Below are positions 46,093 to 64,000 of a stretch of 64,000 nt of DNA, in pieces. Position 1 is the stretch's first letter. Each line of letters begins with the position of its first letter. Source of the DNA: Lepidodermella squamata (lineage: Eukaryota > Animalia > Gastrotricha); assembly GCA_047495785.1 (NCBI GenBank), contig JBLDXI010000028.1, positions 1,905,462 to 1,969,461 of the forward strand, written 5' to 3'. The notes below the pieces were generated by a model that saw only the letters and a list, made by a program, of their open reading frames with translations, had not been told where the DNA came from and made no database searches. Both the position numbers and the translations under genes were made by a program.

Positions 46093-46451
46093 GTAAGTTG
46101 GATTGACATCATGGAAAATTGACGATTTGCCTTGATTTAATCGATTATTAACTTCTTTCGATATGGAATTCATGCTTATTTAAAACAGGGTTTATTCCAA
46201 TTTTTAAGTGTCTAAAATTGGTTGCGCCACTACCTAATTTAGGATTTAGGGTTTAAGCACTCTTGCCCTAAATTTGTCCAATTATTTCCAATTATTTAAT
46301 TATTCAAATGTCAAATGTCCAATTATTAGCTTTTTTATCGATCTTAATGCCTCAAATAATCCTGGAATTTTAGTTTTATTTAATTTATAATTTTTATCTG
46401 ATGTTGGGTTCCAATGCTTCTGATATCGGAAAAATCATTGATTATCAAAAT

Positions 46452-47241
46452 CAGCGGTTCTCATGAGGGGGTTTGCGACCCAAAATTGGGTCGCAGAGGC
46501 TTTTCTGATGGGTCGCTAGGTGGACCGCGGGTCGCATGGGTCGAAAGGCAAAAACATGTAAAAAACTAAATAAATGATGAGATGAAATAAATAAATGAGA
46601 TAAAAGTGGAAAAATTACTTATTATCGAATTTTCCAGTGCTATAGAACATGCTTTTTCAACACTTTTAGCTCTGAAACTTAACTTTAGCCTACTTTTTAG
46701 TCAATTTTAACAGGTTTTGGAGCGTTTTTTAATGAAAAATCTTCAAAATGTCTTCGCTTCGCTCGTTTATTGGTTGAAATCAGAGCGTTGACAGAGTGGG
46801 GGGTGGGGGATCGGGAATAAAACACCCCCAAAGAATTCCTGAAAGTGGTTTCCAACTACAATTTTCCTATGAATCCTCCATATTCCACTGCATTTTAAGC
46901 CCATTTTCGGGTTAAAAATGCCAAAAAAGCGTCAGCTAAAGCTCGCTTCGCTCGCGAGCCCGAGGGTGAAAACTATCACCCCCAAAAAAATATCCTGGCT
47001 ACGCCACTGGTTGAAATCACTAGTCATTTTGGGTAATATATAGCACACAATTTTTTTCAGCCTCGACGGCTGCAGGATCCATGTTCCAAGCGTTTCCAAA
47101 ATTGATGCCTAAAAATAGTATAAAAAAGAAGAAAAATAAAGAATGTACCCCCCAAAATTGAAAATTATAAGCGCCAGGGTCGCACAATTTTCTTGAAAAC
47201 CACTTTTAGGGTCGGGAACTGCCCAGTCGTGAGAACCACTG
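46452..47241. mobile_element. hAT (Charlie-like) non-autonomous element; second copy at 48124-48913
   Basis: TIRs CAGCGGTTCTCA / TGAGAACCACTG. 8-bp TSD ATCAAAAT at 46444-46451 and 47242-47249. Subterminal GGGTCGC repeats. Confidence 0.85.
46781..47009. mobile_element. Second hAT-type MITE nested in the first; copy at 48453-48681
   Basis: 8-bp TSD GTTGAAAT at 46773-46780 and 47010-47017. Imperfect TIRs CAGAGCGTTGACAG / CTGGCTACGCCACTG. Confidence 0.75.
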
Positions 47242-47367
47242 ATCAAAATCGATACTCGAATCGAATCGAAATCAGTATCGGCTCTGAAATCGATAGTGTG
47301 GTCTATCGATTTAGCCTTATTATATTTAGCCGAGATCACACAAAAATGAATGAAAAATTGTTGCATA

Positions 47368-47655
47368 CAGGGTGTTTCAGAACTCGCGCACTATATGAAT
47401 AGCATGCGGCAAATGCGCGCGCATTGTTATGCGCATACACTATTATACGCGTATACTATTTTACCTATAAATGTACCACACACTACTGTAGTCAGCGTAT
47501 AAAATATGCGTAATACATAAATGTACAGCATACATAATAGCACTGCCGTAGTTATTTTCTGGTGGAAACCTTCGAGCCTCGATAAATTTGAGCCGAGTTT
47601 CATTGAATATCTTTTTTATTTCGAGGATGATGTCATGTTTTTCTGAAACATGCTG
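47368..47655. mobile_element. Possible Tc1/mariner-type MITE
   Basis: TA-CAGGGTGTTTCAGA ... TCTGAAACATGCTG imperfect TIRs. The right TA is not conserved. Confidence 0.4.
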
Positions 47656-50600
47656 ATTGATTGGACTCTGAAGCGAGAGGTTTCAAAACAATTTCTCAAA
47701 TTCCGTGGCTGGATATTTCAGAAATTGATGATTTCTGAGAAAATTCTGATTTTACTTGATGTTGAATTTGTCGAAATATCGTTGGTTAATTAGTCTCCTG
47801 CCTTGGCATCAAAATTTCTTTCACGTTGCATTAATTCAAGGCCCCGACTGCACATGTTGATAAACAATGACGTTGATCTAAACCACTGGCGAATGTTATA
47901 CATCAGTAGTAAGAAATACCGCTACTAGCCCGATGGCCTGCCCAGAAACTTAGAACTCCAACTAAGCTGAATATAGATGACCTGATAACTCGAATTACGA
48001 ATTTCTCCCGGCCGGTTTTCAATTTATTTATATGCACTAATAATTTTTACAACGAACTGTTTACTGAAGTTACAAGTTTAGTATTTGTATAGTGACGCTC
48101 TCATCGCTTCCAATTATCAAAATCAGCGGTTCTCATGAGGGGGTTTGCGACCCAAAATTGGGTCGCAGAGGCTTTTCTGATGGGTCGCTAGGTGGACCGC
48201 GGGTCGCATGGGTCGAAAGGCAAAAACATGTAAAAAACTAAATAAATGATGAGATGAAATAAATAAATGAGATAAAAGTGGAAAAATTACTTATTATCGA
48301 ATTTTCCAGTGCTATAGAACATGCTTTTTCAACACTTTTAGCTCTGAAACTTAACTTTAGCCTACTTTTTAGTCAATTTTAACAGGTTTTGGAGCGTTTT
48401 TTAATGAAAAATCTTCAAAATGTCTTCGCTTCGCTCGTTTATTGGTTGAAATCAGAGCGTTGACAGAGTGGGGGGTGGGGGATCGGGAATAAAACACCCC
48501 CAAAGAATTCCTGAAAGTGGTTTCCAACTACAATTTTCCTATGAATCCTCCATATTCCACTGCATTTTAAGCCCATTTTCGGGTTAAAAATGCCAAAAAA
48601 GCGTCAGCTAAAGCTCGCTTCGCTCGCGAGCCCGAGGGTGAAAACTATCACCCCCAAAAAAATATCCTGGCTACGCCACTGGTTGAAATCACTAGTCATT
48701 TTGGGTAATATATAGCACACAATTTTTTTCAGCCTCGACGGCTGCAGGATCCATGTTCCAAGCGTTTCCAAAATTGATGCCTAAAAATAGTATAAAAAAG
48801 AAGAAAAATAAAGAATGTACCCCCCAAAATTGAAAATTATAAGCGCCAGGGTCGCACAATTTTCTTGAAAACCACTTTTAGGGTCGGGAACTGCCCAGTC
48901 GTGAGAACCACTGATCAAAATCGATACTCGAATCGAATCGAAATCAGTATCGGCTCTGAAATCGATAGTGTGGTCTATCGATTTAGCCTTATTATATTTA
49001 GCCGAGATCACACAAAAATGAATGAAAAATTGTTGCATACAGGGTGTTTCAGAACTCGCGCACTATATGAATAGCATGCGGCAAATGCGCGCGCATTGTT
49101 ATGCGCATACACTATTATACGCGTATACTATTTTACCTATAAATGTACCACACACTACTGTAGTCAGCGTATAAAATATGCGTAATACATAAATGTACAG
49201 CATACATAATAGCACTGCCGTAGTTATTTTCTGGTGGAAACCTTCGAGCCTCGATAAATTTGAGCCGAGTTTCATTGAATATCTTTTTTATTTCGAGGAT
49301 GATGTCATGTTTTTCTGAAACATGCTGATTGATTGGACTCTGAAGCGAGAGGTTTCAAAACAATTTCTCAAATTCCGTGGCTGGATATTTCAGAAATTGA
49401 TGATTTCTGAGAAAATTCTGATTTTACTTGATGTTGAATTTGTCGAAATATCGTTGGTTAATTAGTCTCCTGCCTTGGCATCAAAATTTCTTTCACGTTG
49501 CATTAATTCAAGGCCCCGACTGCACATGTTGATAAACAATGACGTTGATCTAAACCACTGGCGAATGTTATACATCAGTAGTAAGAAATACCGCTACTAG
49601 CCCGATGGCCTGCCCAGAAACTTAGAACTCCAACTAAGCTGAATATAGATGACCTGATAACTCGAATTACGAATTTCTCCCGGCCGGTTTTCAATTTATT
49701 TATATGCACTAATAATTTTTACAACGAACTGTTTACTGAAGTTACAAGTTTAGTATTTGTATAGTGACGCTCTCATCGCTTCCAATGACCAATGCCCCAT
49801 GGCGACTGGTTGATTGGACCGTGCGGACCGTGCGGACCGTGCGGAAAAGGAACAAAGTCGCGTGGTGCTTGAACTATTGGACGGGGAAATGGGCAGCCGA
49901 GTTCATTGGGTTGAGGAAAACATCCGCCTTCCTTAAAATTGTACTGATTCATCCTACTCAAATAAGATTGATGAATACTAAGAGTTAGATGAAAATTGTC
50001 CACCTGTTTAGTTTCCTGAGAAAAATTTTCCACAATAAGGACAGCCAAAGCAACTTGAAGAGGCGATATCACAGTCTCGATTTTTACAATACAGGCACTC
50101 TACTCCCATGAATAAGCGATTTGCCATGAATGATGCAATGCAGCAAAGCGTCATTTAGGTGCTAAGCAACCTCCTGTTTTTTCGATAATAAGCATAGGAA
50201 TAGAGAGAATTGCGAAGCGCCGAAGTTGGTAGCCGCTAAATAATTAAACAGAAACACAGTTGACGTAAAATGCGAGGAAGTACTGAAGTAGCTTAAACTT
50301 TCATCAATTTTACGCCATTTTTTTCCTGATTCGTGCACCATGCCTGGCCAGCAACCACCTAACGTAACTTGTGGTACTCACGCTAACATGCATAATCCTC
50401 AACATCCAACTTACACGGGACCCTGCAACAAGCAGTGCCAGCATCCTTGCGCAGGGAAGAAATGATCTCGACTCCACTGCGAGTGACTCAATTGACAGGA
50501 AACTAATAACCTCTCATTAAGTTTGTGTAGTTAGTGTTACTAAAACTGCTTATATTCACTATCAATGAGTGGGAAAGGCAAAGATGGCTGTGGTTGCGGT

Positions 50601-50815
50601 GGTAGTGGAAAAACGGACAGTGGCGCCAGTGGTCATGGCAAAACAGGATCGAAATCGAAATGAAGCCGCCATCAAAGCTGCAACGCATTTCAACTTATAA
50701 ATGTTAAAATGTTTCAATATATAAATTGGCTGATTACATCCATTATTTAGTTTGAACATTTGAACTATGGAACATTTAAATATTGAAATATTTTAATTTC
50801 TCAAATAAATATAAG

Positions 50816-51073
50816 ATGCTTCGTCGCAAGGTAATAAATCCCGACAAAATCAGCCAAGCAATCCATGAATATCAGAATAGCTCTAAGACAGTAGATAAAA
50901 TCGCAGCTGAAGTGGGACTCAGCAGAGGCACGATTTACTATCATTTAGGCAAACAACAACGCGTCTCATCGCTGAAGGGCGGTGGCATCAACGTTAGTCT
51001 GATTCCAAAGGATGTCTCTCATGTCGGCGGCAAGGAAGCTTACCTGCTAAGAAGAAGATTTCTCGGTAAATAA
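50816..51073 (+). CDS. Small helix-turn-helix DNA-binding protein
   Basis: KTVDKIAAEVGLSRGTIYYHL is a classic HTH signature. First ATG at 50816. Confidence 0.7.
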   Translation: MLRRKVINPDKISQAIHEYQNSSKTVDKIAAEVGLSRGTIYYHLGKQQRVSSLKGGGINVSLIPKDVSHVGGKEAYLLRRRFLGK

Positions 51074-52286: not shown

Positions 52287-52946
52287 TCACGTATTCTTTA
52301 GGTTAGAAATAATCAAAATGTATGACAGTTGTATGCTTTCGTCAGCTGCTGCAATAACCGTTAAGCTATCATTCAATCGGAATTGCTCTATAAAGGAACA
52401 GTATTCATTGCTACTCTCCAAATTAATATTGTTATAGTTGAAGTATTTCGAGAACAAGTTACCGTTGTTTTTGAAGAAATCAAGAGTGAAGGATGTGGCT
52501 CTGTTGTCGTCCAGCCGGAACCACATTTCCACTCTGGCTGTAACGTCCGCTCGAAACACTAAGCTATCGCTTACTTCAGGCATTCCGGAAATCATGTTAT
52601 CAAAACTTAGCTTATTCTCGCGCGAAAGAGAAACCTTGCCAGAGCATATCAATCTGGAATCCCGAATCGCGCCATCGTTTGGATTTATTGGTGGATGGAT
52701 GTTCGTGAGCCTAGCATTTTTAAAGTCAACAGTCTGATCGGATTGAATCATTAAACAACTTCGCTCAACCCAATTTTTACTAACAGCATCGTTGTCGAAA
52801 ACGGGACCACCCAAATTTTCGATGCAGTAGCTATTCGCGTTTAGGTTTGCCGCAAATGGAGTACTGCCGTCTGCCCTCAAATAAATTGCTGCCTGTCGTG
52901 CATTTTCAAACCATTCACTAGGAATGAATATTTCATTCGATCTCAT
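52287..52946 (-). CDS. Fiber/spike-like protein
   Basis: Two shaft-like repeats IENLGGPVFDNDAVSKNWV and LTNIHPPINPNDGA, followed by a beta-rich head. Confidence 0.55.
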   Translation of the reverse strand: MRSNEIFIPSEWFENARQAAIYLRADGSTPFAANLNANSYCIENLGGPVFDNDAVSKNWVERSCLMIQSDQTVDFKNARLTNIHPPINPNDGAIRDSRLICSGKVSLSRENKLSFDNMISGMPEVSDSLVFRADVTARVEMWFRLDDNRATSFTLDFFKNNGNLFSKYFNYNNINLESSNEYCSFIEQFRLNDSLTVIAAADESIQLSYILIISNLKNT

Positions 52947-53439
52947 AATGAGCGATGACTAGATTATACTTATTCCGCCATTGCCTCAGCGTCTTATCGT
53001 TAACCGATTTCACGTGTACGCTCTGTGCCACAAGGTCGTAGCCATGTTCCTGAGCCAGAGCTTTGATAACAAAGTCAAGGTGCATCATATTTTGATCGGG
53101 AAAGAGTTCTGCATAGCCCAAGTCAAACTTAATAAAGCTCGACATCAACCTCTCAAGTTGAGGAGGTAGCATTTCTATACCGCGCTTTTTAATTACAGTC
53201 ATTAAATGCCATTTTCGTTTGTAAGGTACTAATTTGAATGGCGGGGAGTGCTCACAGTATGGATAGCATAAACCGCAGTTTGGGCATACGTTGAAATTCG
53301 CCCTTTCGTCAAGCAAAAGTTCTGTGGCACACGCATCGCAATACACGTAAGGCATAGTAGAAAATGTCTTTCTCACTGATTTGGAATTCTCAAATATATC
53401 TATCAGTTTCTTCAATTCATCTTCAACGGACGCTTGCAT
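52933..53439 (-). CDS. VLTF3-like late transcription factor
   Basis: Zn ribbon CDAC...VCPNCG followed by PYKRKWHL (cf. the YKRxNHF motif of VLTF3) and C-terminal KTLRQWRNKY. Confidence 0.6.
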   Translation of the reverse strand: MQASVEDELKKLIDIFENSKSVRKTFSTMPYVYCDACATELLLDERANFNVCPNCGLCYPYCEHSPPFKLVPYKRKWHLMTVIKKRGIEMLPPQLERLMSSFIKFDLGYAELFPDQNMMHLDFVIKALAQEHGYDLVAQSVHVKSVNDKTLRQWRNKYNLVIAHYEIE

Positions 53440-53602
53440 CCTTTTTATCTACGATGGCATTTCTCTTTAACACTCTTATGAATTTATACTTTGTCATACC
53501 GCAGAGTGTACAAGATCCTGTCCTGATCGCTCTGTTATTACGAGTTGCTAATTGCTGCTCATTCACTGTATTAGTGTTTTTCCTACAATGCAGGCAATAC
53601 AT
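53423..53602 (-). CDS. 59-aa zinc-ribbon protein (DUF5679-like), not in the ORF track
   Basis: MYCLHCRKNT...GSCTLCGMTKYKFI. TCTA motif 14 nt upstream. Confidence 0.7.
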   Translation of the reverse strand: MYCLHCRKNTNTVNEQQLATRNNRAIRTGSCTLCGMTKYKFIRVLKRNAIVDKKDASVR

Positions 53603-53604
53603 AT

Positions 53605-54063
53605 CTAGCTTAACAATAGATTTTTCAGTAAGTCATCATTGTGCGGCGACCCAGTGTTATTGAAGTCCAGCAAAATAGCTAACTTATCCCTACCTTTAGC
53701 TAGTTCTCTTAGAAAGTAAATGGCATAGAAGCCACATGCAACAGAGCCAGGATGCTGTATATCGTGTGTGGAATACCAAATTACTCGTTTTCCACGACGC
53801 TGAATGATCTCATTAGGGCATATAAACCCGAAGCTATCGAAGTAGATTATTTCAGTCGACTTCACAGCCATTGAGACCCAATGACTTCCGCGGTTAACTT
53901 TATCGTCCAGGTTAATGACGTAATATCCTCGTTGAAGTGTAGCAGGAAGGTCGTCCCGAGCGTAACAGCCCTTGAAGTCGTTTCCGAGAAGCCTCTTTAA
54001 AGCTTCGGTTATCTCAAGATTGGATAGAGGATAAAACCCGCGATTTTTCAGTTTTTTTCCCAC
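53605..54063 (-). CDS. Adenain-like (Ulp1/C5-type) maturation cysteine protease; no AUG before the catalytic His
   Basis: VINLD...GSHWV, YFDSFG, Q...SVACGFYAIYFL. Confidence 0.9.
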   Translation of the reverse strand: MGKKLKNRGFYPLSNLEITEALKRLLGNDFKGCYARDDLPATLQRGYYVINLDDKVNRGSHWVSMAVKSTEIIYFDSFGFICPNEIIQRRGKRVIWYSTHDIQHPGSVACGFYAIYFLRELAKGRDKLAILLDFNNTGSPHNDDLLKNLLLS

Positions 54064-54626
54064 GGCATGTAAACCCCTTTTCCGAATAAGGTCGGAAGAA
54101 ATGCACCCAGTAAGCTTGATACAAGCGGCAATATAAAAGCTCCACCCTGTTGCTCTATGTGGCTTTTAATTGCCTTGCTACTGCCAGCAGGCACAATTTG
54201 TCGGGACTCCAGAAGCGAAACCGCCTTTTGCAGTTCATCTAAATCCTCTTTTGGTATTGTCAGCGACACGCCTTTGCCTACGATCTTGTCAGCTGCTGTA
54301 CTGGCGAGGGAACTGGCAAGGCCGCTCAGCGCTGCAACGGCTACAGGGGCTATAAATTTAGAAGCTGTGGCAAGCGCTGGTAACAGGAACCCGCCAGACT
54401 GATTCTTCCGGAGCTGAGTTTTGCTCAGTTTAATATCAAGCCCTTTCATCCTTTGTTTGCTCTTCATTACTTTATCTATCTGCCTTTGCGTCAACAACAA
54501 CTTGGAACCATTTGGATCTGCAAGAAGCTGATCAATTGTGAAACGCAATACAACTTGGCCTGGTTTTTGAAATGCTCTTCTCTGGGTCTCTGTTAGTTTA
54601 ATGTCGAATGGAATGTATTTAGTCAT
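54048..54626 (-). CDS. Virion core / membrane-active precursor protein
   Basis: Basic N-half (LTQRQIDK, IKLSKTQLRK). GG|FL and GKG sites flank amphipathic helices (GGFLLPALATASKFIAP; GGAFILPLVSSLLGAFLPTLFGKG). Confidence 0.7.
   Translation of the reverse strand: MTKYIPFDIKLTETQRRAFQKPGQVVLRFTIDQLLADPNGSKLLLTQRQIDKVMKSKQRMKGLDIKLSKTQLRKNQSGGFLLPALATASKFIAPVAVAALSGLASSLASTAADKIVGKGVSLTIPKEDLDELQKAVSLLESRQIVPAGSSKAIKSHIEQQGGAFILPLVSSLLGAFLPTLFGKGVYMPWEKN
54051..54057 (-). other. Putative -1 ribosomal frameshift slippery heptamer A_AAA_AAC
   Basis: Core ORF ends TGG GAA AAA AAC TGA. The protease ORF is in the -1 frame at this point. Confidence 0.7.
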
Positions 54627-54647
54627 TATTATTCTAAGTTAGAAAAT

Positions 54648-56021
54648 TCACAGCATGTTAAGGCTTATCTCGAGCTTATCGTCTTTGTAGTTGAAGCCTA
54701 TTTCTTTTTCCCTAAAAATGAAACAAAACATAACTAATGGCTTATCGACAGGACTGATTCTAGCTTTAAATGTGACACTCACGCTTTGGTCACCGCGTGA
54801 ATTATATATAGCACCGGCATCTACACTTTCCAGATTGAATGCCAGGAAACGGTAAAATCGACAAAAATCAAGGTAACTAAGCTGACTACCAGTGTTCGTG
54901 CTTTCGCGATCGTTGAAATGGTTCATGTTTTCCTTAATATAGTTATAGAGCCGGTGAGCGTTGAAGCGTGAAAAGTTCATGTTGGCCTCGGCAAACGCCT
55001 CCTTATTGTTTATCATGAGAGAGTAGCTGAATATATTCCATTGAGTGTAAATTTGTGTCAGTTTAGTTTGATACTCTGCGTCTGAGAAGTCTTGCAAGAA
55101 TACAATATACAGCCAGCTTGGTTTTTTCATCTCAGATGTGATTGTCCATTGTACTGAAGAACTATTCACAGCAAACTGGGGGCTCTGAAAGCATTCTAGC
55201 GATTGCCATTTGTAAACTTTCGTGAGACCCGTATTGAAAGCTTTCAAAATGCGTGCTCTAGTTTCAGGCATCAATGTGACTTCCGGAATAAACATATAAG
55301 CTGAAGAAATCTGGAAATGCATCCCTTCCGGCAAATCATCGTTTTTCCCTATGGCTGCGACTATGGGTTTGGTGTAATTTGGTGTTAATATCACTCGAAA
55401 TCTCGCCTTGGTCCACATCCCAAAATAATTTTGGAAGAAAGGAATGTCCCTTAAGTAAAGTGTGACAACCATCTTATGATCTTTAACATACAAGGATCTC
55501 AAGAGTAGTCCCTCGTTGCAGCTGTTCTTCGCAGGATCGAAACTTTCTGCTGTAACTTCAGGAGTCATTTCATAATTGACATGGGCTGGGTAGTCTCTGG
55601 CGAAAAGAGATTCTTCCCCAAGACTTCGCGCGTAGTCATCCGACCAGTGAATAACGCCCAGCAACGAGCTCCAGTGTTCGTTATAACGTGTTTGCTCTAC
55701 CTGGTTATCATTATCACCTACTTGCACTTCAACTGTTTCAAACATGGATATAACATGGTTCCTAATTGCGTACTTGTCGGTTGCTTTGAAAGCCTGACTA
55801 TCGTTTCGCCGGAACTCAACACTCAATTGAATATAGGCTTCCCTCGGCAATAAAAACAACTCACGCAAGTTATATGTAGAAAAGATAAGGCGAGAAGGCT
55901 GAGAGGGCTGATCCTGTATAAAACTTGTTGCACAAACCTCGGCCCAGCTTTTCCTTTCGAACTGCCGATCATCTATGGTCGGACTCTCAAAGAGACAGTT
56001 CACTATTTCGGATTGAAGCAT
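54648..56021 (-). CDS. Major capsid protein (double jelly-roll, hexon-like)
   Basis: 457 aa, beta-rich. LPREAYIQLSVEF, ISMFETVEVQV, QISSAYMFIPEVTL, KPSWLYIVF, FLAFNLE. Lies in the structural module. Confidence 0.8.
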   Translation of the reverse strand: MLQSEIVNCLFESPTIDDRQFERKSWAEVCATSFIQDQPSQPSRLIFSTYNLRELFLLPREAYIQLSVEFRRNDSQAFKATDKYAIRNHVISMFETVEVQVGDNDNQVEQTRYNEHWSSLLGVIHWSDDYARSLGEESLFARDYPAHVNYEMTPEVTAESFDPAKNSCNEGLLLRSLYVKDHKMVVTLYLRDIPFFQNYFGMWTKARFRVILTPNYTKPIVAAIGKNDDLPEGMHFQISSAYMFIPEVTLMPETRARILKAFNTGLTKVYKWQSLECFQSPQFAVNSSSVQWTITSEMKKPSWLYIVFLQDFSDAEYQTKLTQIYTQWNIFSYSLMINNKEAFAEANMNFSRFNAHRLYNYIKENMNHFNDRESTNTGSQLSYLDFCRFYRFLAFNLESVDAGAIYNSRGDQSVSVTFKARISPVDKPLVMFCFIFREKEIGFNYKDDKLEISLNML

Positions 56022-56040
56022 TTAAATAGGCATTAGATAT

Positions 56041-56340
56041 TTAGCGTATCAGCTTAAAGCCAGTTCCAGTGTAATTATCGATGTCTCTTTTGATTTTCTT
56101 CTCTAGCTCCTCAATAGCGTGGATAGAGCGCTCAGCTTGTTTTGCCGGCAGCACTTTGTCTGCAAGTTTGTTCGCGGCATAGGCACCTATTTTGTCACCG
56201 GCAACTTCCGCTGCCTTTGATAGAGCTGATTTGGCCAAAGTCTGAACCGGTAAGAGACCGGTAAATCTGTCGAGCATATTTTTTGCGATGTCTACATAAC
56301 CGCGTCCTACGACATATGCTTTTGTTCTGCGATTTTTCAT
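56041..56340 (-). CDS. Small basic/amphipathic core protein precursor
   Basis: VVGRG|YVD and YTGTG|F putative cleavage sites. Ala/Lys-rich helix. Confidence 0.65.
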   Translation of the reverse strand: MKNRRTKAYVVGRGYVDIAKNMLDRFTGLLPVQTLAKSALSKAAEVAGDKIGAYAANKLADKVLPAKQAERSIHAIEELEKKIKRDIDNYTGTGFKLIR

Positions 56341-56363
56341 TATAACAAAGTAACTAGAAAAAG

Positions 56364-57104
56364 CTAGCGAATATCAAGACCAATACCCCATTTTCTTTCA
56401 GTCATCTCCAGTGGTGCACCAGCCTGGGTGGTGAGCGTTATTTTTATGTTTTGTGTATTAGCATTCGTACAGGACAAGTAGCGTTTCTCATTTGGAACAA
56501 TGTTAACGTGTTGACCGAAATTTTTGTTAATCGGACAGGTGAAGATGACATCACTAACCTCCGGGACTAGGCTATTATTGACGACGTTACAGTGAACAAA
56601 CATCGAGTCATTTGACATCGTGATGTTAGGAATATGCTGCCCATTAAAATCTGCCCGGAATTCGCCTTTGTCTACACCTAGAAATTCAGACGTAGCATCA
56701 TGCTCGATCAGAAGAGCGTAACCTGGTTGAATTCGAAAGCTCAGTTTATTCAGAACAGTATTGACAGACAAGCTTATGCCGTAAACTTCTGAGCCGTCGA
56801 TGGTCTTGAAATGGCCGTTTCCCTTCATAACAAAGTGAATATAATTGTTATAATCACGAAAAGTGAAGGTTCCATCAGGAAATCGTATTTCAAAAGTTTT
56901 GTCTTCTGGATCTTTATATCTGAGCTTACTATTACCTGAAGCATGTGATACATTATAAAAAACATCGTAAAAGTGAATGTAGGAAACGGCGATGCTGCGC
57001 TTTGTGAAATCGATCTTATCATTCAGGTAACGATCGATGACGTTGCTGGCGTCCGACCTGTTATTGCAGTAATATTCCAAAGGCAGAAATATTGGATCAC
57101 CCAT
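56364..57104 (-). CDS. Minor capsid protein (penton, single jelly-roll)
   Basis: YNVSHASGNSKLRY, IRFPDGTF, SMFVHCNVVNNS, IKITLTTQAGAPL. Confidence 0.8.
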   Translation of the reverse strand: MGDPIFLPLEYYCNNRSDASNVIDRYLNDKIDFTKRSIAVSYIHFYDVFYNVSHASGNSKLRYKDPEDKTFEIRFPDGTFTFRDYNNYIHFVMKGNGHFKTIDGSEVYGISLSVNTVLNKLSFRIQPGYALLIEHDATSEFLGVDKGEFRADFNGQHIPNITMSNDSMFVHCNVVNNSLVPEVSDVIFTCPINKNFGQHVNIVPNEKRYLSCTNANTQNIKITLTTQAGAPLEMTERKWGIGLDIR

Positions 57105-58140
57105 TTACCATTGTTATTAGATTTTCGTATTCAGCTTTGGTCAATCTATTGTTCTTCAAAAGAAAATCTGCAATGCTCACAACTTCGTTATATATTTCAG
57201 CGTTATTGTTTCCCGCTCTGATTTCACCAATCGCGTTTACAAGCCTCTTTTGGGCATCAACAACATCAGTTACGTAAATTCTGTTCCAGATTTTAGAATG
57301 GGGTTTGGGTCGATATCCAGTCAGTTCACAAATTTTTTGATATTGATCGTAGTCTTGCTTAGAAAAGTTCACCTTCGGATTGTACCTTTTCAAGAGCAAT
57401 TGTTTGACACCATCACTTATGTCTATATCGGCTAAACCTTGCACTTTACCTTTATTCTTCTTGCGAATCCTTAAAACCCCTCGCTTTATGTCGTCTTTTC
57501 TGGCGTAAAACCTACCAATTTTTAAATAATTGTTGGATATACCTGTACCAGATTTCTCAAGTAGCACCCGTTGATTCTCAAAAGTCTCAAGCAACGAGTT
57601 CTTGAAGTTTTTCAAAATTTGTATATCATTTTGAATCGATTGATACTGTGGAGAGTCTTTGTATCCTTTTTTAGTGAGTTGAGCTAATTGGGAGCCCAAA
57701 ACATTTTTATTATAGTGCGAAAGAGATACAATAATATGCGCGGGATCAGCCCCAGCCTCTTCAATCTCTTTAGCTGTGGGGAAGTTATGTCTCTTCAAAA
57801 CTATGTTCTCCACTGATTCCTTCGCCTCTTCAGTTGTCGGCTCCGCCTTTGGTAATACCGCTTCCAGACGATGCGGGTGATTAGCTGTTGGTAAGCTTCT
57901 CTTTGCTGTTTGTTTGAGCTCCTTGGCAACTGATCTTATTGCTTCCACAGTTGGCATCTGCCTGTAAGTCTCTTGCAAAGCTGTAAGGGGATCGGGTTCA
58001 ACATTTACACTATGCTTATACTTTAAAGCATATACATCGCCTTTAACCATGGCCAAGTGTCGGTCGTACATCTTTTCCTGCTTATCTAAATCTTCAAGAA
58101 TTCGAATTTGTTCATCAGTTGTTAATTCGCGTAGCGGCAT
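57097..58140 (-). CDS. Conserved Polinton/adintovirus protein, unknown function
   Basis: C-terminal RLVNAIGEIRAGNNN...EVVSIADFLLKNNRLT motif and internal SGTG|I site. Start moved to the ATG at 58140 (track start is GTG; TCTA motif 11 nt upstream). Confidence 0.7.
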   Translation of the reverse strand: MPLRELTTDEQIRILEDLDKQEKMYDRHLAMVKGDVYALKYKHSVNVEPDPLTALQETYRQMPTVEAIRSVAKELKQTAKRSLPTANHPHRLEAVLPKAEPTTEEAKESVENIVLKRHNFPTAKEIEEAGADPAHIIVSLSHYNKNVLGSQLAQLTKKGYKDSPQYQSIQNDIQILKNFKNSLLETFENQRVLLEKSGTGISNNYLKIGRFYARKDDIKRGVLRIRKKNKGKVQGLADIDISDGVKQLLLKRYNPKVNFSKQDYDQYQKICELTGYRPKPHSKIWNRIYVTDVVDAQKRLVNAIGEIRAGNNNAEIYNEVVSIADFLLKNNRLTKAEYENLITMVNG

Positions 58141-58340
58141 ATCACTCTGACTAGAATAAATCGCTCCTTGTTCGCCCAGCGGTCGCTCCTCGTTAGCCAC
58201 ATGATCGCTTTTTGAACGCCAAATGATCGCCCATTGAACGCTCAGTTGAACTCATCTTATATTGGAGATAATCAGCAAAGCTAAGATAATTCAAACTGTT
58301 TGATAGATAATTTAAACTAATTTCTAATAGTTAAAAATGA

Positions 58341-59033
58341 TTAGGCGAAGATTGAAGCGTAGTTAGCTCTTAGTCTTAGACACTGTGGCTTGCTTTGACC
58401 GTCAATGATAAACGAACCATGAGGAAGGCTTACGGCTTCATTGTACTTGGCAATAAACTCTGTTGTCTTAATTGAGGGGGCGTATATTCGATGAATTAGG
58501 CTCAGCTCCCTGTTGTCTGCCAGCTTCTTCAGCACAACAAAATCGGCATTATCCCTAATTGTCTTTGGGATCTTAAAATATGACTGCGAAAGATAAAAGG
58601 CTGACGCGTTGTATTTTCGGCATCTTATCCACATTGCACCGATATGTGTTTCTTGCAGCTTCTTTTGCTCCATGCAGATATCGTCGAAAGCATAAGCATG
58701 CTGGAAACTTTTATCCAGGCTCTCAAGAGGCATGACTTCAGAAATGTCATTGGAAGAGTGAACAAGGCTTACTGAAATTCCTTGCTTGGAAAGAATGTCT
58801 TCCTTTTGTTTCTGAAGCCTAATCAAGTACTCGTACTTGTCCTCATCTAGAGTTTTACTATATAAGTAGATCTTGTGAAAAAATGAGTTATGCAGTATAG
58901 TCAAAAGATCTGAAGTCTTTCCGGTCCCGGACGGTCCAATAATAAGACATCGAAAAGGATGCTGAGGGAAAAAGGGCGATCCATTTTTGTACTCCTGTCG
59001 CTGTGATTGAACGATGCTGTCCCAATTAATCAT
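58341..59033 (-). CDS. A32/FtsK-like genome-packaging ATPase
   Basis: PFRCLIIGPSGTGKT (Walker A), YAFDDI (Walker B), RKYNASAFYLSQSYFKIPKTIRDNA. Likely ATG at 59033. Confidence 0.92.
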   Translation of the reverse strand: MINWDSIVQSQRQEYKNGSPFFPQHPFRCLIIGPSGTGKTSDLLTILHNSFFHKIYLYSKTLDEDKYEYLIRLQKQKEDILSKQGISVSLVHSSNDISEVMPLESLDKSFQHAYAFDDICMEQKKLQETHIGAMWIRCRKYNASAFYLSQSYFKIPKTIRDNADFVVLKKLADNRELSLIHRIYAPSIKTTEFIAKYNEAVSLPHGSFIIDGQSKPQCLRLRANYASIFA

Positions 59034-59069: not shown

Positions 59070-60491
59070 ATGTTTGACAGAATAATTAACAGCTTGCCGG
59101 TGGAATTTCATTTACCGAGTTATCCCGTTCAAGGAGAAATCGTTCCTGGAGGGTCTTATAACAATAAGCAGTCATATAGCTACGCTGGCCCAGGAACACA
59201 TTTTGCGCAAAGAATGAGGCAGGGCTACAGAGGTATAAATGAGTTGGACGAGGCAGCCAGAGAACATGACGCTGCCTATCACTTTTACAAAGACAGAGAG
59301 CGACGCACCGTTAGCGATAGAATTCTTGCAGACAAGGCACTCAGGATTGCAAGCGATCTATCGAAAAGTGGTTACGAGAGGGCTATGGCAGCATTTGTCT
59401 ACAAAACGTTCGTTGAAGGTGGAATCGCTGACCACCTGCAGGGGAAAGGCATGGTTCTTCGAGATAGGAAACCTGTTAGTTACTCGCAACAAATTCCGAA
59501 GCGAAAGACAAAACAAGAGCCGCCGCGATCAGAAACAGTTAGCAAAATGAAGTTTGAAACATTAGCTGAGGAGCTTCATAAACCCGCAAGAAAGCGGTTT
59601 CCAAGACGTCGCGTTCATGTGCATAACGTTGACGACACATGGGGCATGGACATCGTCTTCATGAACGACTTGACCGATGACAATAATGGCTATAAGTACA
59701 TTTTAACCGTGATATGCTGCTTCAGCAGATATGCATGGGCCGTCCCCTTGAAATCAAAAGACGCAAAAAGTGTTTTCGATGCCTTCTCATCAGTTATAAA
59801 GACAAGCCGACGACAGCCTAAAAATATTTGGGTCGATGAGGGCAGTGAATTTTATAATTCAATCTTCACTAAATGGTTGAAAGCAAATAAGGTGAATCGG
59901 TACTCGACCTATGAAAATTTTCATAATCCTATGATCGAGAGGTTTAACAGGACTCTTAAAACTAGAATGTGGAAACGCTTTACACGAAACAACTCACGCA
60001 ATTGGGTTGCAATATTAGATGACCTAGTTAGAGAGTACAACCTTACTAAGCACAGATCGATTCGAATGACGCCAATTCAGGCGACTGATCCAAAGAATAG
60101 AGACATCGTTCACAACAATTTGTACGCGGAATCAGAGGAAAATAAGTTACTTAAGCCCAAATTCGCTGTTGGTGACATTGTGAGGATCAGTCGACTGAAA
60201 GAGACCTTTGAAAAAGGTTTCCACCCTTCATGGAGTGAAGAACTTCTCAAAGTCGTCAAGGTTAACGAAACCCTTCCTAGAACCTATAAAATTGAGGCTC
60301 TAGATGGTGAACCAGTAGTAGGTAGCTTCTACGAACAGGAATTGCAGAAATCTTCCCAACAGCAAGAAAACCTTTACCGGGTTGAAAAGATTTTGAGAAG
60401 AAAGAAAGTTAAAGGTAAGGAAATGGTTCACGTCAAATGGGCAGGATATGATAAGCCGACTTGGGAGCCCGCAGATAACTTGTTGGATTAG
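59070..60491 (+). CDS. Fusion of parvovirus-type phospholipase A2, retroviral-like (rve) integrase and chromodomain
   Basis: YSYAGPGT...INELDEAAREHDAAY (PLA2). WGMDIV / IWVDEGSEF / IERFNRTLK (DDE). YRVEKIL...VKWAGYDKPTWEP (chromodomain). Confidence 0.92.
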   Translation: MFDRIINSLPVEFHLPSYPVQGEIVPGGSYNNKQSYSYAGPGTHFAQRMRQGYRGINELDEAAREHDAAYHFYKDRERRTVSDRILADKALRIASDLSKSGYERAMAAFVYKTFVEGGIADHLQGKGMVLRDRKPVSYSQQIPKRKTKQEPPRSETVSKMKFETLAEELHKPARKRFPRRRVHVHNVDDTWGMDIVFMNDLTDDNNGYKYILTVICCFSRYAWAVPLKSKDAKSVFDAFSSVIKTSRRQPKNIWVDEGSEFYNSIFTKWLKANKVNRYSTYENFHNPMIERFNRTLKTRMWKRFTRNNSRNWVAILDDLVREYNLTKHRSIRMTPIQATDPKNRDIVHNNLYAESEENKLLKPKFAVGDIVRISRLKETFEKGFHPSWSEELLKVVKVNETLPRTYKIEALDGEPVVGSFYEQELQKSSQQQENLYRVEKILRRKKVKGKEMVHVKWAGYDKPTWEPADNLLD

Positions 60492-60917: not shown

Positions 60918-63900
60918 ATGACCGACAACAGTGAAACCAATGTAATGGGACCTAACGGTCGTCGTATTAAGGTTGGTGGCCGAGCATACAATACGCTATT
61001 GAGGAAGGGTTTTGAATTAAAAGATAACCGTTGGACGAAGGGTGGGATGCCTTACGAGAGAACCCAACGGAAAACAGTATTAAATCCTATCACGCAAAAA
61101 TATATTTCTATCGGTTCGTCCAATTTCAAAAAACTTGAGAAGGAGTTTTTCTATGACGAAGCGAATAATCAGCTTATGAAACGAGGTGTGAGCAAGATAA
61201 AAAGGGGCAGCCAGGACTATCAGAGGCTGCGTAAAGATGGCTATATCTTGAATTCTGCTGGTGAAATGGTGTTCCGAGGGCAGAAAGAAAATCATGTCAT
61301 AAATCCTAAGACTTTGAAATTCATCAAATGGGGTGGACCAACGTATAACAAGATGATTGCCGACGGCTATATTTATATCGAGCGCATTAACTCTCTCGAG
61401 AATAACAATTATATGGAATTTAATGAGCAGAAAAATCCCGAGCATTTAAAGAATATCCTCTATAGGTTAGACATTGAAGCTCATAATTCAGGAAGTGATT
61501 TCCATCTATTCACCGAAAAGGTTAGAGAATCAGTTGTTGATTACGTGCAAGAAAAATTAGAGCAAAATGATAACATTAAAATAGTGTTTAACGCTGATTT
61601 GAATTGGAAAAAAGACAACAATAGTAAATCAGAACATAAATGGTCTTCCGCTGTAAAGGCTGCCCCAGTTATCAGGAAATATGATGACATAGGGAGCGTT
61701 GTAGACCAACACTTCTCTCAACTTGGTGGTTCCATTGAGAATTACGAGCAGCGCGGCTCCGGATGGATCTTCCAAAACATTTCGCGACTCCGTGTTTGTG
61801 CTTTCAGCTACTGCCCGTTAGGGACAGGATCTTACATTCCAACACCGAAGTTTATTGCAGATAAAAAGGCCGTTATAAATGTTAAAAACACCGACGATGA
61901 ATGCATTATCTGGAGCATGCTGGCTTGCTTGCATCCAGTAGATAAAAATGCACAGGAAACATCCAAGTACAAGTTTTTTAAAAATGAACTGAAACATGAC
62001 GGTATCAAGTTTCCCATTTCGTGGAACGACATTTCAAATCTTGAAGATCAGAATAGGATAAAGATCAACGTGATTGAATACAAAGAAAAAGATGGTTGCC
62101 ATCGCCTCATTTCATACTACGCGTCGAAGAAACCTTACGCCCAAGAAGTTAACCTTCTGCGAACTACTCTCAGAGACGGTGCTAAGGTGATAGCACACTT
62201 CAGCTGGATAAAAAATTTGAGCCGGTTGCTACCTAGTTCTGATCAGCACAAAAAGCATTGGTGCTTACAGTGTCTGACTGGATTTGACAGCGAAATAAAG
62301 CTGAAAGAGCATAATTGCATAGTAAATGGCAACGTCATAGTGAAGTTTCCTCCGAAAGGTAGCCAAGTTATTTTCAAAAATTACTACAAGCAGCTTGAAG
62401 TACCGTTCGTTTTCTATTGTGATGCGGAGACTACGCTAACGAATTCCGATGTTCAAAAGGGTAGGTCCTTGATTTATCAGAAGCATGTTGCGAATTCCTT
62501 CGGATGTTTACTGGCTAGTAAGGTACCTGAAATCCGTTCGAAGTATTGGCAGTTTGAAGGGGCAAATTGTGCGGAGCAGTTCCTGAGATTCTTGATTAAA
62601 AAGCAATACAGTTTGAGGAAATTTATCCAGGAAACCAATAAAGACATGGTGTTATCTCAACCAGAGCAACAAAGTTATGATAATGCACAGCACTGCCATG
62701 TTTGCCGAAGCGCCTTGGGCGACGATAAAGTCCGCGATCATGACCATCTTACAGGCCGTTTCAGGGGAGCTGCTCATAATGCCTGCAATCTGAATTTGAA
62801 TCTCAAGCATTCTTTCATCCCGGTTGTTTTTCATAACCTGAGTGGGTACGATTCGCACTTGATAATGCAGGCAGCCGGAAAAGTAGTGAACGAAATCAAT
62901 GGAGAAAAGATTGCAAATTTCAAAAAAGAAGACAAAAAGAAAAGACCAAACCTGTTGACGATTGACGTCATAGCTAATTCCTCGGAAAAGTATTTAAGTT
63001 TTAGTATAGGCAAACTTCGATTTATCGATTCGTTTCAGTTTATGAGTGAAAGCCTGGACCAAATAGTCAGTAATCTGAAAAAATCGGGAAAGAGATTCGC
63101 TCATTTTGATGAACAGCTTTCCAAGTTCACAACTGAACAAAGATCCCTGCTGCTTCGTAAGGGAGTGTATCCGTACGATTATATAGATAGCCTCGACAAA
63201 CTGAATGAAACTCAGCTACCGAATAAGTCACATTTCTCAAACAGACTAAATTCTTGTTCGCTTGATGATAACAAAATCGAAATAACTTCTATATCTGACG
63301 AGGATTATGAACACGCACAAGCCGTTTGGTCAAAACTGAATTGCAAAACTCTGAAAGACTACCACGACCTGTATTTGAAAACAGATGTTCTCTTGTTAGC
63401 AGATTGTTTTGACAGTTTTCGAGACACCTGCATAAGCTATTACGATCTGGACCCGGCGCATTATTTAGGTGCACCTGGGTTAAGTTGGGACGCGATGTTG
63501 AAATACACACGTGTTGAACTGGATCTCTTTGATAATAAGGAGATGCTTGAATTCGTTGAAAAAGGCATAAGAGGCGGTATAGCTGTTATTCCTGGGAGGT
63601 ACGCGAAGGCTAACAACGAAGGTATGACAGACTATGACGCAAATGCTCCGAAATCGTTTATAATGTATTGGGACGCCAACGCGCTTTATTCTTTCGCGAT
63701 GACCCAGTGGTTACCGCAGAAAGACTTCGAATGGATTGGTCCTGAAACAATCACCAAAGATTTCGTGAAGTCAATTGGGGCCAAAGACGAATTCGGGTAC
63801 ATGCTGGAGGTTGATATCGACTATCCTGCAAGGCTTCATAACTCACATAATGACTATCCGTTTTGTCCAGAGCATATTCTTTGCGAACCGAGCCCTCACA

Positions 63901-64000
63901 TGCAAGATCTGCATAAGCAATTAGGACTTAACAGGCCGGCGAAGGTGAAAAAGCTAACACAAAATCTGAACGACAAGAAAAATTACGTCATGCACTATCG
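60918..64000 (+). CDS. Protein-primed family B DNA polymerase (pPolB), open at the window end and missed by the ORF track
   Basis: Continuous frame from ATG 60918: GSGW, SYIPTP...VINVKNTDDECIIWS (vOTU-like), C2H2 finger, YCDAET (ExoI), CHVC...DHDHLTGRFRGAAHNACN, FHNLSGYDSH (ExoII), RKGVYPYDY, YLKTDVLLLAD (ExoIII), IRGG, YWDANALYSFAM (motif A). Confidence 0.95.
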   Translation, partial: MTDNSETNVMGPNGRRIKVGGRAYNTLLRKGFELKDNRWTKGGMPYERTQRKTVLNPITQKYISIGSSNFKKLEKEFFYDEANNQLMKRGVSKIKRGSQDYQRLRKDGYILNSAGEMVFRGQKENHVINPKTLKFIKWGGPTYNKMIADGYIYIERINSLENNNYMEFNEQKNPEHLKNILYRLDIEAHNSGSDFHLFTEKVRESVVDYVQEKLEQNDNIKIVFNADLNWKKDNNSKSEHKWSSAVKAAPVIRKYDDIGSVVDQHFSQLGGSIENYEQRGSGWIFQNISRLRVCAFSYCPLGTGSYIPTPKFIADKKAVINVKNTDDECIIWSMLACLHPVDKNAQETSKYKFFKNELKHDGIKFPISWNDISNLEDQNRIKINVIEYKEKDGCHRLISYYASKKPYAQEVNLLRTTLRDGAKVIAHFSWIKNLSRLLPSSDQHKKHWCLQCLTGFDSEIKLKEHNCIVNGNVIVKFPPKGSQVIFKNYYKQLEVPFVFYCDAETTLTNSDVQKGRSLIYQKHVANSFGCLLASKVPEIRSKYWQFEGANCAEQFLRFLIKKQYSLRKFIQETNKDMVLSQPEQQSYDNAQHCHVCRSALGDDKVRDHDHLTGRFRGAAHNACNLNLNLKHSFIPVVFHNLSGYDSHLIMQAAGKVVNEINGEKIANFKKEDKKKRPNLLTIDVIANSSEKYLSFSIGKLRFIDSFQFMSESLDQIVSNLKKSGKRFAHFDEQLSKFTTEQRSLLLRKGVYPYDYIDSLDKLNETQLPNKSHFSNRLNSCSLDDNKIEITSISDEDYEHAQAVWSKLNCKTLKDYHDLYLKTDVLLLADCFDSFRDTCISYYDLDPAHYLGAPGLSWDAMLKYTRVELDLFDNKEMLEFVEKGIRGGIAVIPGRYAKANNEGMTDYDANAPKSFIMYWDANALYSFAMTQWLPQKDFEWIGPETITKDFVKSIGAKDEFGYMLEVDIDYPARLHNSHNDYPFCPEHILCEPSPHMQDLHKQLGLNRPAKVKKLTQNLNDKKNYVMHY

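What the first reader, a model, noticed from the sequence alone, without database searches (positions are those of the whole stretch)
53605..54626. Protease probably made by gag-pro-like -1 programmed ribosomal frameshifting from the core-protein gene
Seen: the adenain ORF has no AUG until after the catalytic His (GSHWVSM) and no TCTA motif of its own. It overlaps the end of the core ORF in the -1 frame exactly at GAA AAA AAC TGA, a canonical X_XXY_YYZ heptamer (A_AAA_AAC, as at MMTV gag-pro). An imperfect stem (CGGGTTTTATCCTC...GAGATAACCG) follows about 10 nt downstream, and an LFGKG|V putative cleavage site just upstream could release the protease. Inference: a core-protease fusion sets stoichiometry and packages the protease. 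I am not aware of this being described for Polintons but cannot search.
Basis: partly seen in the sequence, partly recalled or inferred. Interest (0 to 1): 0.88.

Follow-up and report, generated by a model that had tools for sequence, protein, structure and literature searches.

The report
Polinton protease hidden behind a frameshift
In a virus-like Polinton element, the capsid-maturation protease gene has no AUG start before its active site and begins one base out of frame under the last codons of the core-protein gene; relatives keep the same arrangement, so the protease is likely made as a rare core-protease fusion by ribosome slippage, much as retroviruses make theirs.

Summary
On the minus strand the 192-aa core ORF ends GAA AAA AAC TGA. 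The adenain-fold protease overlaps it in the -1 frame, and its first AUG lies after the catalytic His.

This is probably not a sequencing error or a dead copy. Three contigs from two runs cross the junction without an indel. All 11 close-relative cores stop at the same place, and no close in-frame fusion was found. Four distant contigs (L060, L065, L072, L114) repeat the pattern: an upstream ORF, an in-frame A_AAA_AAN heptamer, and an AUG-less protease in -1. In-frame core-protease fusions occur in distant relatives.

The downstream stem is no more stable than shuffles, and the adenain-type cut would be LFGK|G.

One is a GUG in good context 13 nt before the core stop (AUG in 5 close relatives), which allows reinitiation. 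The other is polymerase slippage on the A-run.

My estimate is -1 ribosomal frameshift 0.6, reinitiation 0.2, polymerase slippage 0.13. No expression data cover the junction. A predicted hexon-adenain frameshift is already in a preprint; I found no report of a core-protease one.

The parts
54048..54626 (-). Core-protein ORF, 192 aa; basic N-terminal half and pX-like hydrophobic segments after GG motifs
   Evidence: 9 close homologues at 40-68% identity; only weak links to Adeno_PX (1 of 10 members at E 2.6; Atlas 0.85), so the 'core' label is an inference
54051..54057 (-). Slippery heptamer A_AAA_AAC in the core frame, directly before the stop codon
   Evidence: no indel in the X1 and X3 contigs that cross it
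54048..54050 (-). Core stop codon TGA
   Evidence: 11 of 11 close-relative cores end 3-4 residues after the same Pro-Trp
53605..54051 (-). Adenain-like (clan CE) cysteine protease, 148 codons after the junction, in the -1 frame
   Evidence: Pfam Peptidase_C5 E 3.3e-4, just below the cut-off; model pLDDT 88.2; best Foldseek hits are adenovirus proteases, E 4.8e-7
53881..53883 (-). Predicted catalytic His codon (HW motif), upstream of the first AUG at 53871
   Evidence: aligns with the HW of adenain
53734..53736 (-). Predicted catalytic Cys codon (CGF motif)
54061..54063 (-). In-frame GUG (context gccGUGg), 13 nt before the core stop; rival start, formed by the Pro-Trp codons of the core
   Evidence: AUG at this place in 5 relatives and a Leu codon in 1
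54075..54089 (-). Adenain-type cleavage motif LFGK|G near the core C-terminus (predicted release site)
   Evidence: consensus from PMC4246237; not tested
54270..54284 (-). Adenain-type cleavage motif IVGK|G
54387..54401 (-). Relaxed (P4 Gln) motif QSGG|F
54138..54152 (-). Relaxed (P4 Gln) motif QQGG|A
54006..54040 (-).
   Evidence: -4.3 kcal/mol, 48 of 100 shuffles as stable
54640..54643 (-). TCTA motif 17 nt before the core AUG (element-wide motif, promoter-like by inference)
54648..56021 (-). Probable double jelly-roll major capsid protein, upstream neighbour
   Evidence: Atlas 0.97 to clusters including PF21738, recognition value low; no Pfam hit
58341..59033 (-). A32-like packaging ATPase (context)
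   Evidence: Pox_A32 E 2.8e-10
59070..60491 (+). PLA2-like domain + rve integrase + chromodomain (context)
60918..64000 (+). Probable family-B DNA polymerase, open for 1027 codons to the window end (context)
   Evidence: DANALY motif; reading it as a PolB motif is recalled; Pfam found only Endonuclease_7

Best explanation
The protease gene has no AUG before its active site and no TCTA motif of its own, overlaps the core gene's last codons in the -1 frame at A_AAA_AAC, and is likely translated from the core mRNA when a few percent of ribosomes slip back one base there, which would give a core-protease fusion. Shown: the frame arrangement, the missing AUG, the heptamer, its conservation and the protease fold. 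Inferred: a shared mRNA, and slippage at a low rate without a detectable RNA stimulator, perhaps helped by the adjacent stop codon. The product would be about 340 aa (core ...PWEK-X-LKNRGF... protease). The core half would likely carry the enzyme into the assembling particle, and self-cleavage at LFGK|G would release it. A low rate fits the 7-50 protease copies per adenovirus virion (PMC4246237).
For: (1) No indel at the junction in two X1 contigs (depth 708 and 232) or one X3 contig. (2) In the overlap upstream of the junction, 4 of 4 natural differences are silent in the core frame and non-silent in the protease frame. Of the 4 differences downstream of the three-codon linker (54028 and below), all are at third positions of the protease frame and 3 are silent. 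So the protease's constrained part starts at the junction. (3) 11 of 11 close cores end PWE(x)K[N/K/I], and 6 of 6 full-length close proteases begin (M/L)G(x)K at the matching place. For the pair P0044+P0002 (paired only by equal contig length) the two frames force A_AAA_AAY, even though a codon is inserted upstream. (4) Of 98 distinct scorable protease loci including the window, 5 lack a Met at or before the conserved L[ST]N helix, and all 5 have an upstream ORF overlapping in -1 with an in-frame A_AAA_AAN. Only 2 of the 93 with a Met do (33 loci skipped, duplicates collapsed). L060 and L065 have clear core homologues upstream. L060 has no AUG/GUG/CUG/UUG in the protease frame until 47 nt past the core stop, and L072 none until 74 nt. 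(5) Fusion is a recurring architecture: 111 of 118 longer hits carry core and protease in one ORF, and 86 of them join through a Lys run with a Met in only 1; P0121, P0127 and P0158 are also fused. (6) A_AAA_AAC is among the most shift-prone heptamers on mammalian ribosomes (PMC5009743 passage). (7) The other genes of this copy are uninterrupted.
Against: No significant downstream structure at any of 6 sites tested (best z -1.29), and one X1 variant changes a base within the proposed stem with no partner change listed. The pair P0096+P0003 forces A_AAA_AUY, which is not a canonical heptamer, and it has an AUG. Five of 11 close proteases start with AUG at the overlap. The -1 cases, the close family and the multicopy family fall in one 49-row group (SH-aLRT 97, quick tree), so they are not independent and the Fisher P of 4e-6 overstates the case. 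No DNA of close relatives was found. No RNA or protein evidence covers the junction.
Confidence: 0.6

Rival explanations
1. Termination-reinitiation or another non-canonical start: ribosomes that stop at the core stop codon restart 13 nt upstream, at GUG here and at AUG in several relatives, and make a free protease.
For: GUG at 54063 has G at -3 and +4. Five of the 7 relatives or copies with a called start at this place have AUG: P=0.04 at this element's CCA share of 0.32, but P=0.26 if the 4 called from an internal Met are counted as non-AUG. P0003 has an AUG and no canonical heptamer. Reinitiation can use non-AUG codons and starts up to 29 nt upstream of the stop (PMC3542737 passages).
Against: The NUG is forced by the invariant Pro-Trp codons, and its first base varies (A, G, U or C) as a free third codon position would. 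The only UGGGA in the 100 nt before the stop starts 12 nt upstream, not in the 40-90 nt zone. Leaky scanning would have to pass 6 upstream AUGs. L060 and L072 have no comparable start near the stop, and only 1 of 86 Lys-run junctions has a Met.
Confidence: 0.2
2. Transcriptional slippage: RNA polymerase stutters on the A-run, so a small share of transcripts encode the same core-protease fusion, as potyvirus polymerase does at GAAAAAA.
For: The window has G3A7. The feature common to all cases, P0003 included, is a run of 6 or more A; L060, L065, L072 and L114 have A8 to A11. No RNA stimulator was found. About 2% slippage at GAAAAAA is reported for potyviruses (PMC5009743 passage).
Against: In most cases the run sits in codon register as X_XXY_YYZ, including the minimal A6 case P0002. 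DNA-dependent polymerases usually need longer runs (recalled, not checked).
Confidence: 0.13
3. The junction is a sequencing error or an inactivating mutation in a gene that is normally fused or normally has an AUG.
For: Homopolymer runs are error-prone. In the multicopy family the Lys-run junction takes 24 forms among 86 proteins, which suggests length noise among genomic copies.
Against: No indel in 3 bridging contigs from 2 runs. 11 of 11 close cores stop at the same place. The best fused hit is only 43% identical. All 4 distant DNA cases are -1 and none is only +1.
Confidence: 0.04
4. A spliced or separately initiated protease mRNA supplies an AUG from elsewhere.
For: Earlier scan notes report introns in Polinton protease genes (unchecked AI notes). 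Adomavirus late genes use splice acceptors (10.1101/341131 passage). An AAG with 10 of 15 upstream pyrimidines lies at 54115, in phase.
Against: That acceptor would add codons that vary freely in the protease frame. The next pyrimidine-rich AG (54013) would drop the conserved PLSN motif. There is no GTRAG donor in the core ORF and no TCTA before the protease.
Confidence: 0.03

Closest known systems
Predicted Hexon-Adenain ('Hexain') and Penton -1 frameshifts in adintoviruses (Buck et al. 2024, PMC11071296; passages and section 16 read, supplements searched)
   Same: Same virus group, same proposed -1 shift into the maturation protease; computational prediction only.
   Different: There the upstream partner is the major capsid protein. 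Here it is the core protein, the protease has no AUG, and the junction is traced across relatives. The core-protease case was not found in the main-text passages or the held, partly cut supplements.
Retroviral gag-pro -1 frameshift (MMTV type)
   Same: Structural precursor followed by a protease in the -1 frame. That MMTV gag-pro uses the same heptamer is recalled; PMC5009743 passages confirm the heptamer's shiftiness and MMTV's pseudoknot.
   Different: dsDNA element, cysteine protease of the adenain fold, stop codon directly after the heptamer, and no detectable pseudoknot or stable stem.
Adenovirus protease (adenain) with its pVI/pX/pVII substrates (PMC4246237; passages and section 4 read)
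   Same: Fold, His/Cys motifs, XGX|G and XGG|X sites in the partner protein, and low copy need. The tail left after LFGK|G starts GV, as the pVIc cofactor does.
   Different: Adenain is a stand-alone gene of the L3 unit and its cofactor peptide comes from a separate protein. Here the protease is 148 aa and would be born attached to the core tail.
In-frame core-protease fusions of related elements (P0121, P0127, P0158, P0046 family)
   Same: Same domain order, with a GxG motif and a Lys run at the join in P0121 and the P0046 family.
   Different: One continuous ORF. Some may be genomic copies with altered A-run length rather than stable fusions; no DNA was seen.

Membership tests
Programmed -1 ribosomal frameshift site | X_XXY_YYZ heptamer in the zero frame inside a -1 overlap | tested here: met
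Programmed -1 ribosomal frameshift site | Stimulatory stem-loop or pseudoknot a few bases downstream | tested here: not met
   z 0.08 to -0.71 for the window and none significant at 5 other sites; the pseudoknot scan had no control and gave only GU-rich candidates
Programmed -1 ribosomal frameshift site | Conservation of the shift site and frame across relatives | tested here: met
   4 distant DNA loci; forced in 1 of 2 inferred close pairs and compatible in 4 more; P0003 is an exception
Programmed -1 ribosomal frameshift site | Transframe product or measured frameshifting | not testable with these tools
   no reads or proteomics over the junction
Calicivirus-type termination-reinitiation | Start codon close to the upstream stop | tested here: met
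   GUG 13 nt upstream; absent in L060 and L072
Calicivirus-type termination-reinitiation | UGGGA (TURBS motif 1) within 40-90 nt upstream of the stop | tested here: not met
   only at 12 nt; definition from PMC3542737
Adenain-like clan CE protease | Fold and His/Cys catalytic motifs | tested here: met
   Pfam C5 score 20.8 against a cut-off of 21.3
Polinton/Maverick | PolB, rve integrase, packaging ATPase, protease and capsid genes together | tested here: met
   integrase and ATPase by Pfam; protease; capsid by Atlas lead; PolB by motif only
Polinton/Maverick | Terminal inverted repeats and target-site duplication | tested here: inconclusive
   the right end lies beyond the window; no long inverted repeat in 40000-64000; no genome held
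Adintovirus (Starrett 2021; Buck 2024) | Integrase with C-terminal chromodomain | tested here: met
Adintovirus (Starrett 2021; Buck 2024) | PolB with N-terminal OTU-like domain | tested here: inconclusive
   no OTU hit in Pfam; no profile-profile search was run
Adintovirus (Starrett 2021; Buck 2024) | Hexon recognisable by BLASTP to reference adintoviruses; animal host | not tested
   host flank is eukaryotic (WDR35, PTPLA, ankyrins); the host group was not resolved

The most novel reading that the evidence does not exclude
A broad clade of Polintons and Polinton-like viruses has independently evolved retroviral gag-pro logic. The maturation protease is expressed only through a stimulator-free -1 shift at a Lys-coding A-run at the end of the core gene. 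It is packaged as a core fusion and cut free with a pVIc-like peptide still attached as a built-in activator, while sub-lineages drift between frameshift, permanent fusion and a regained AUG.
Probability: 0.3. Interest if true: 0.8.

Novelty: new variant of a known kind. Interest (0 to 1): 0.62.

Why it matters
If true, this is a conserved recoding site in a eukaryotic dsDNA virus-like element. It would explain how a few protease molecules are both dosed and delivered into the particle. It would also mean that gene callers truncate these proteases or mis-assign their starts (4 of 10 close homologues were called from an internal Met) and that AUG-less copies should not be scored as dead. The 100-nt junction is directly testable in a reporter.

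Tried and rejected
No whole genome is held. Searches for DNA of close relatives found none: viral contigs, metagenome contigs, prokaryote genomes (2 unrelated or distant loci). L059 has a core homologue but no protease hit in the locus.

No RNA holder was listed. X2, whose RNA status is a guess, has contigs over about 54231-55117 but none over the junction or the protease; this is not evidence either way. X4 laid nothing locally.

The proposed stem was rejected, and the pseudoknot scan was uninformative. The Fisher test is set aside because the cases cluster in one clade. The careful tree did not finish, so only the quick tree was used. L073 has a -1 overlap with an A10 run but also a Met; L115 has a heptamer but a Met; L166 lacks a Met by the first criterion but is a poor partial match and was skipped. 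Pfam gave no real family for the core.

Literature searches for a core-protease frameshift in Polintons or virophages gave only PMC11071296 as relevant. A search for TCTA as a mavirus late promoter found no paper. The library lacks most subscription papers, the supplements of PMC11071296 and PMC8502044 were cut when stored, and bioRxiv supplements were not seen. Earlier-findings look-ups for this junction found nothing. No complex prediction was run.

Full report
Setting. The finding lies in a Polinton-type element that runs from about 49.8 kb past the window's end, next to eukaryotic host-like DNA (ankyrin, WDR35, PTPLA genes). It has an A32-like ATPase and a PLA2-rve-chromodomain integrase, a probable double jelly-roll capsid (a lead only) and a polymerase-like ORF open for 1027 codons. 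The right end is outside the window and no genome is held, so terminal repeats could not be checked. The host group was not resolved.

The observation. On the minus strand the 192-aa ORF 54626-54048 ends ...ATG CCG TGG GAA AAA AAC TGA. The frame one base behind is open from 54165 to 53605. It encodes an adenain-fold protease: Pfam C5 scores just under its cut-off, the model has pLDDT 88.2, and the top six Foldseek hits are adenovirus proteases. Its first AUG (53871) follows the catalytic His codon (53883), so no AUG-initiated product could be active. A_AAA_AAC occupies 54057-54051 in the core frame. In-frame heptamers occur at 28 of 9374 codons, and only this 1 of 47 ORFs ends in one. TCTA precedes 8 of 10 other starts at 15-18 nt but not the protease, which suggests the protease has no transcript of its own.

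Two details fail. The proposed stem folds at -4.3 kcal/mol, with 48 of 100 shuffles as stable; the whole region has z -0.55. The adenain consensus (PMC4246237 section 4) puts the cut at LFGK|G, not LFGKG|V.

Is it an error or a dead copy? Two X1 contigs and one X3 contig bridge the junction with no gap and no change between 54048 and 54098. X1 could come from the source organism, but its contigs differ from the window at many sites. The natural differences also show where selection acts. In the overlap upstream of the junction, 4 of 4 are silent for the core and non-silent for the protease frame. Three just after the stop are non-silent, in a linker. The next 4 are all third-position changes in the protease frame, 3 of them silent. 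All 11 close cores end PWE(x)K[N/K/I]. A search for longer forms found no close fusion: best identity 43% among the 120 listed of 686 hits.

Relatives. No DNA of close relatives was found, so their junctions were inferred from proteins. Six full-length close proteases begin (M/L)G(x)K, and four were called from an internal Met. Pairing by equal contig length, P0044+P0002 force A_AAA_AAY before the stop despite an extra codon. P0096+P0003 force A_AAA_AUY, an A6 run that is not a canonical heptamer. The other four are compatible with a heptamer but do not force it.

For distant elements DNA was available. Of 166 loci plus the window, 98 distinct proteases could be scored (33 skipped, duplicates collapsed). 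93 have a Met at or before the conserved L[ST]N helix. The 5 that do not (window, L060, L065, L072, L114) all have an upstream ORF overlapping in -1 with an in-frame A_AAA_AAN; only 2 of the 93 do. The upstream ORF is a clear core homologue in L060 (E 4.6e-13) and L065 (98%), a weak one in L072 (27%), and cut off by the contig end in L114. These cases share one broad clade with the close family (49 rows, SH-aLRT 97, quick tree), so they show inheritance across deep branches, not independent trials.

In-frame fusions also exist. 111 of 118 longer hits hold core and protease in one ORF. 86 share a Lys-run junction with a Met in only 1 and 24 different run forms, probably genomic copies with varying A-run length (inferred; no DNA seen). 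P0121, P0127 and P0158 are further fusions.

Mechanism. The best reading (0.6) is -1 ribosomal frameshifting on the core mRNA. A_AAA_AAC is among the most shift-prone heptamers (PMC5009743 passage). The product would be about 340 aa (...PWEK-X-LKNRGF...). The core carries four adenain-type sites, two canonical and two with Gln at P4, and the last lies nine residues before the core's end. Adenovirus needs only 7-50 protease molecules per particle, so a low rate without a stimulator could suffice. The rate, the packaging role and self-release are inferred.

Against this reading, no significant structure follows any of six sites and P0003 lacks the heptamer. The main rival (0.2) is reinitiation at the NUG formed by the Pro-Trp codons: GUG in good context here, AUG in five relatives. 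The AUG share is suggestive (P 0.04 of 7 called starts) or unremarkable (P 0.26 of 11). There is no TURBS-like UGGGA at the usual distance, and L060 and L072 lack a nearby start. Polymerase slippage on the A-run (0.13) gives the same fusion and cannot be told apart from DNA. Splicing (0.03) and artefact (0.04) are unlikely. Lineages may use more than one route.

What is known. Buck et al. (PMC11071296; passages, section 16, supplements searched but cut) predict -1 shifts in adintovirus penton genes and hexon-adenain fusions by KnotInFrame. Passages of Starrett et al. (PMC8502044), Welch et al. (10.1101/341131) and the nematode Polinton preprint (10.1101/2023.08.22.554363) mention no such junction. 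Seven searches found no core-protease frameshift; the library is incomplete. The site works like a retroviral gag-pro junction but fails the stimulator criterion and has no experimental proof. Verdict: a real, conserved feature and a new variant of a known kind; interest 0.62.

Noticed in passing
window 52946-59033 (-), upstream of starts: TCTA lies 15-18 nt before 8 of 10 starts checked on the virion-module strand (chance about 2.7% per 7-nt band); it is absent before the integrase and polymerase. It is promoter-like; a likeness to the CroV/mavirus late promoter is recalled and was not found in the literature search.
   Followed up: partly
window 54048-54077 (-): The core tail left after LFGK|G begins GV, like adenovirus pVIc (GVQSLKRRRCF, PMC4246237), and its PWE is invariant in 11 of 11 close relatives; possible cofactor peptide.
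   Followed up: no
window 59070-60491 (+): A PLA2-like domain is fused in frame to the N-terminus of the integrase-chromodomain protein. In the adintovirus paper passage PLA2 is described with a pX-like domain instead.
   Followed up: no
window 53423-53602 (-): 59-aa DUF5679 zinc-finger-like gene right after the protease; its TCTA motif lies inside the last protease codons.
   Followed up: partly
window 62680-62795 (+): Endonuclease-VII-like (HNH-type) segment inside the polymerase ORF (Pfam E 4.9e-4, residues 589-626).
   Followed up: no
window 50816-51073 (+): Small helix-turn-helix protein near the element's left end.
   Followed up: no
window 49674-50829: Run X2 (RNA is a guess) has high contig depth near the element's left end with poly-A and poly-T loose ends, in a stretch with no long ORF; possibly an abundant non-coding or terminal transcript.
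   Followed up: no
window 46441-49784 and 40522-42650: Exact long duplications in the flank (spacing 1672 and 1829 nt), next to the element's left end; repeat or assembly artefact.
   Followed up: no
window 159-31083 (+): Long cluster of ankyrin-repeat ORFs, one with a RING finger, many in pieces.
   Followed up: no
L003, L010, L011 (protease ORFs): Proteases of other Polinton-like viruses are fused in frame to long, non-core N-terminal domains; L003 and L011 have a GKG motif just before the protease.
   Followed up: partly
L073 2380-2450: Core-like C-terminus ending in an A10 run with a -1 overlapping protease that has its own Met five codons before the conserved helix; possible intermediate state.
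   Followed up: partly
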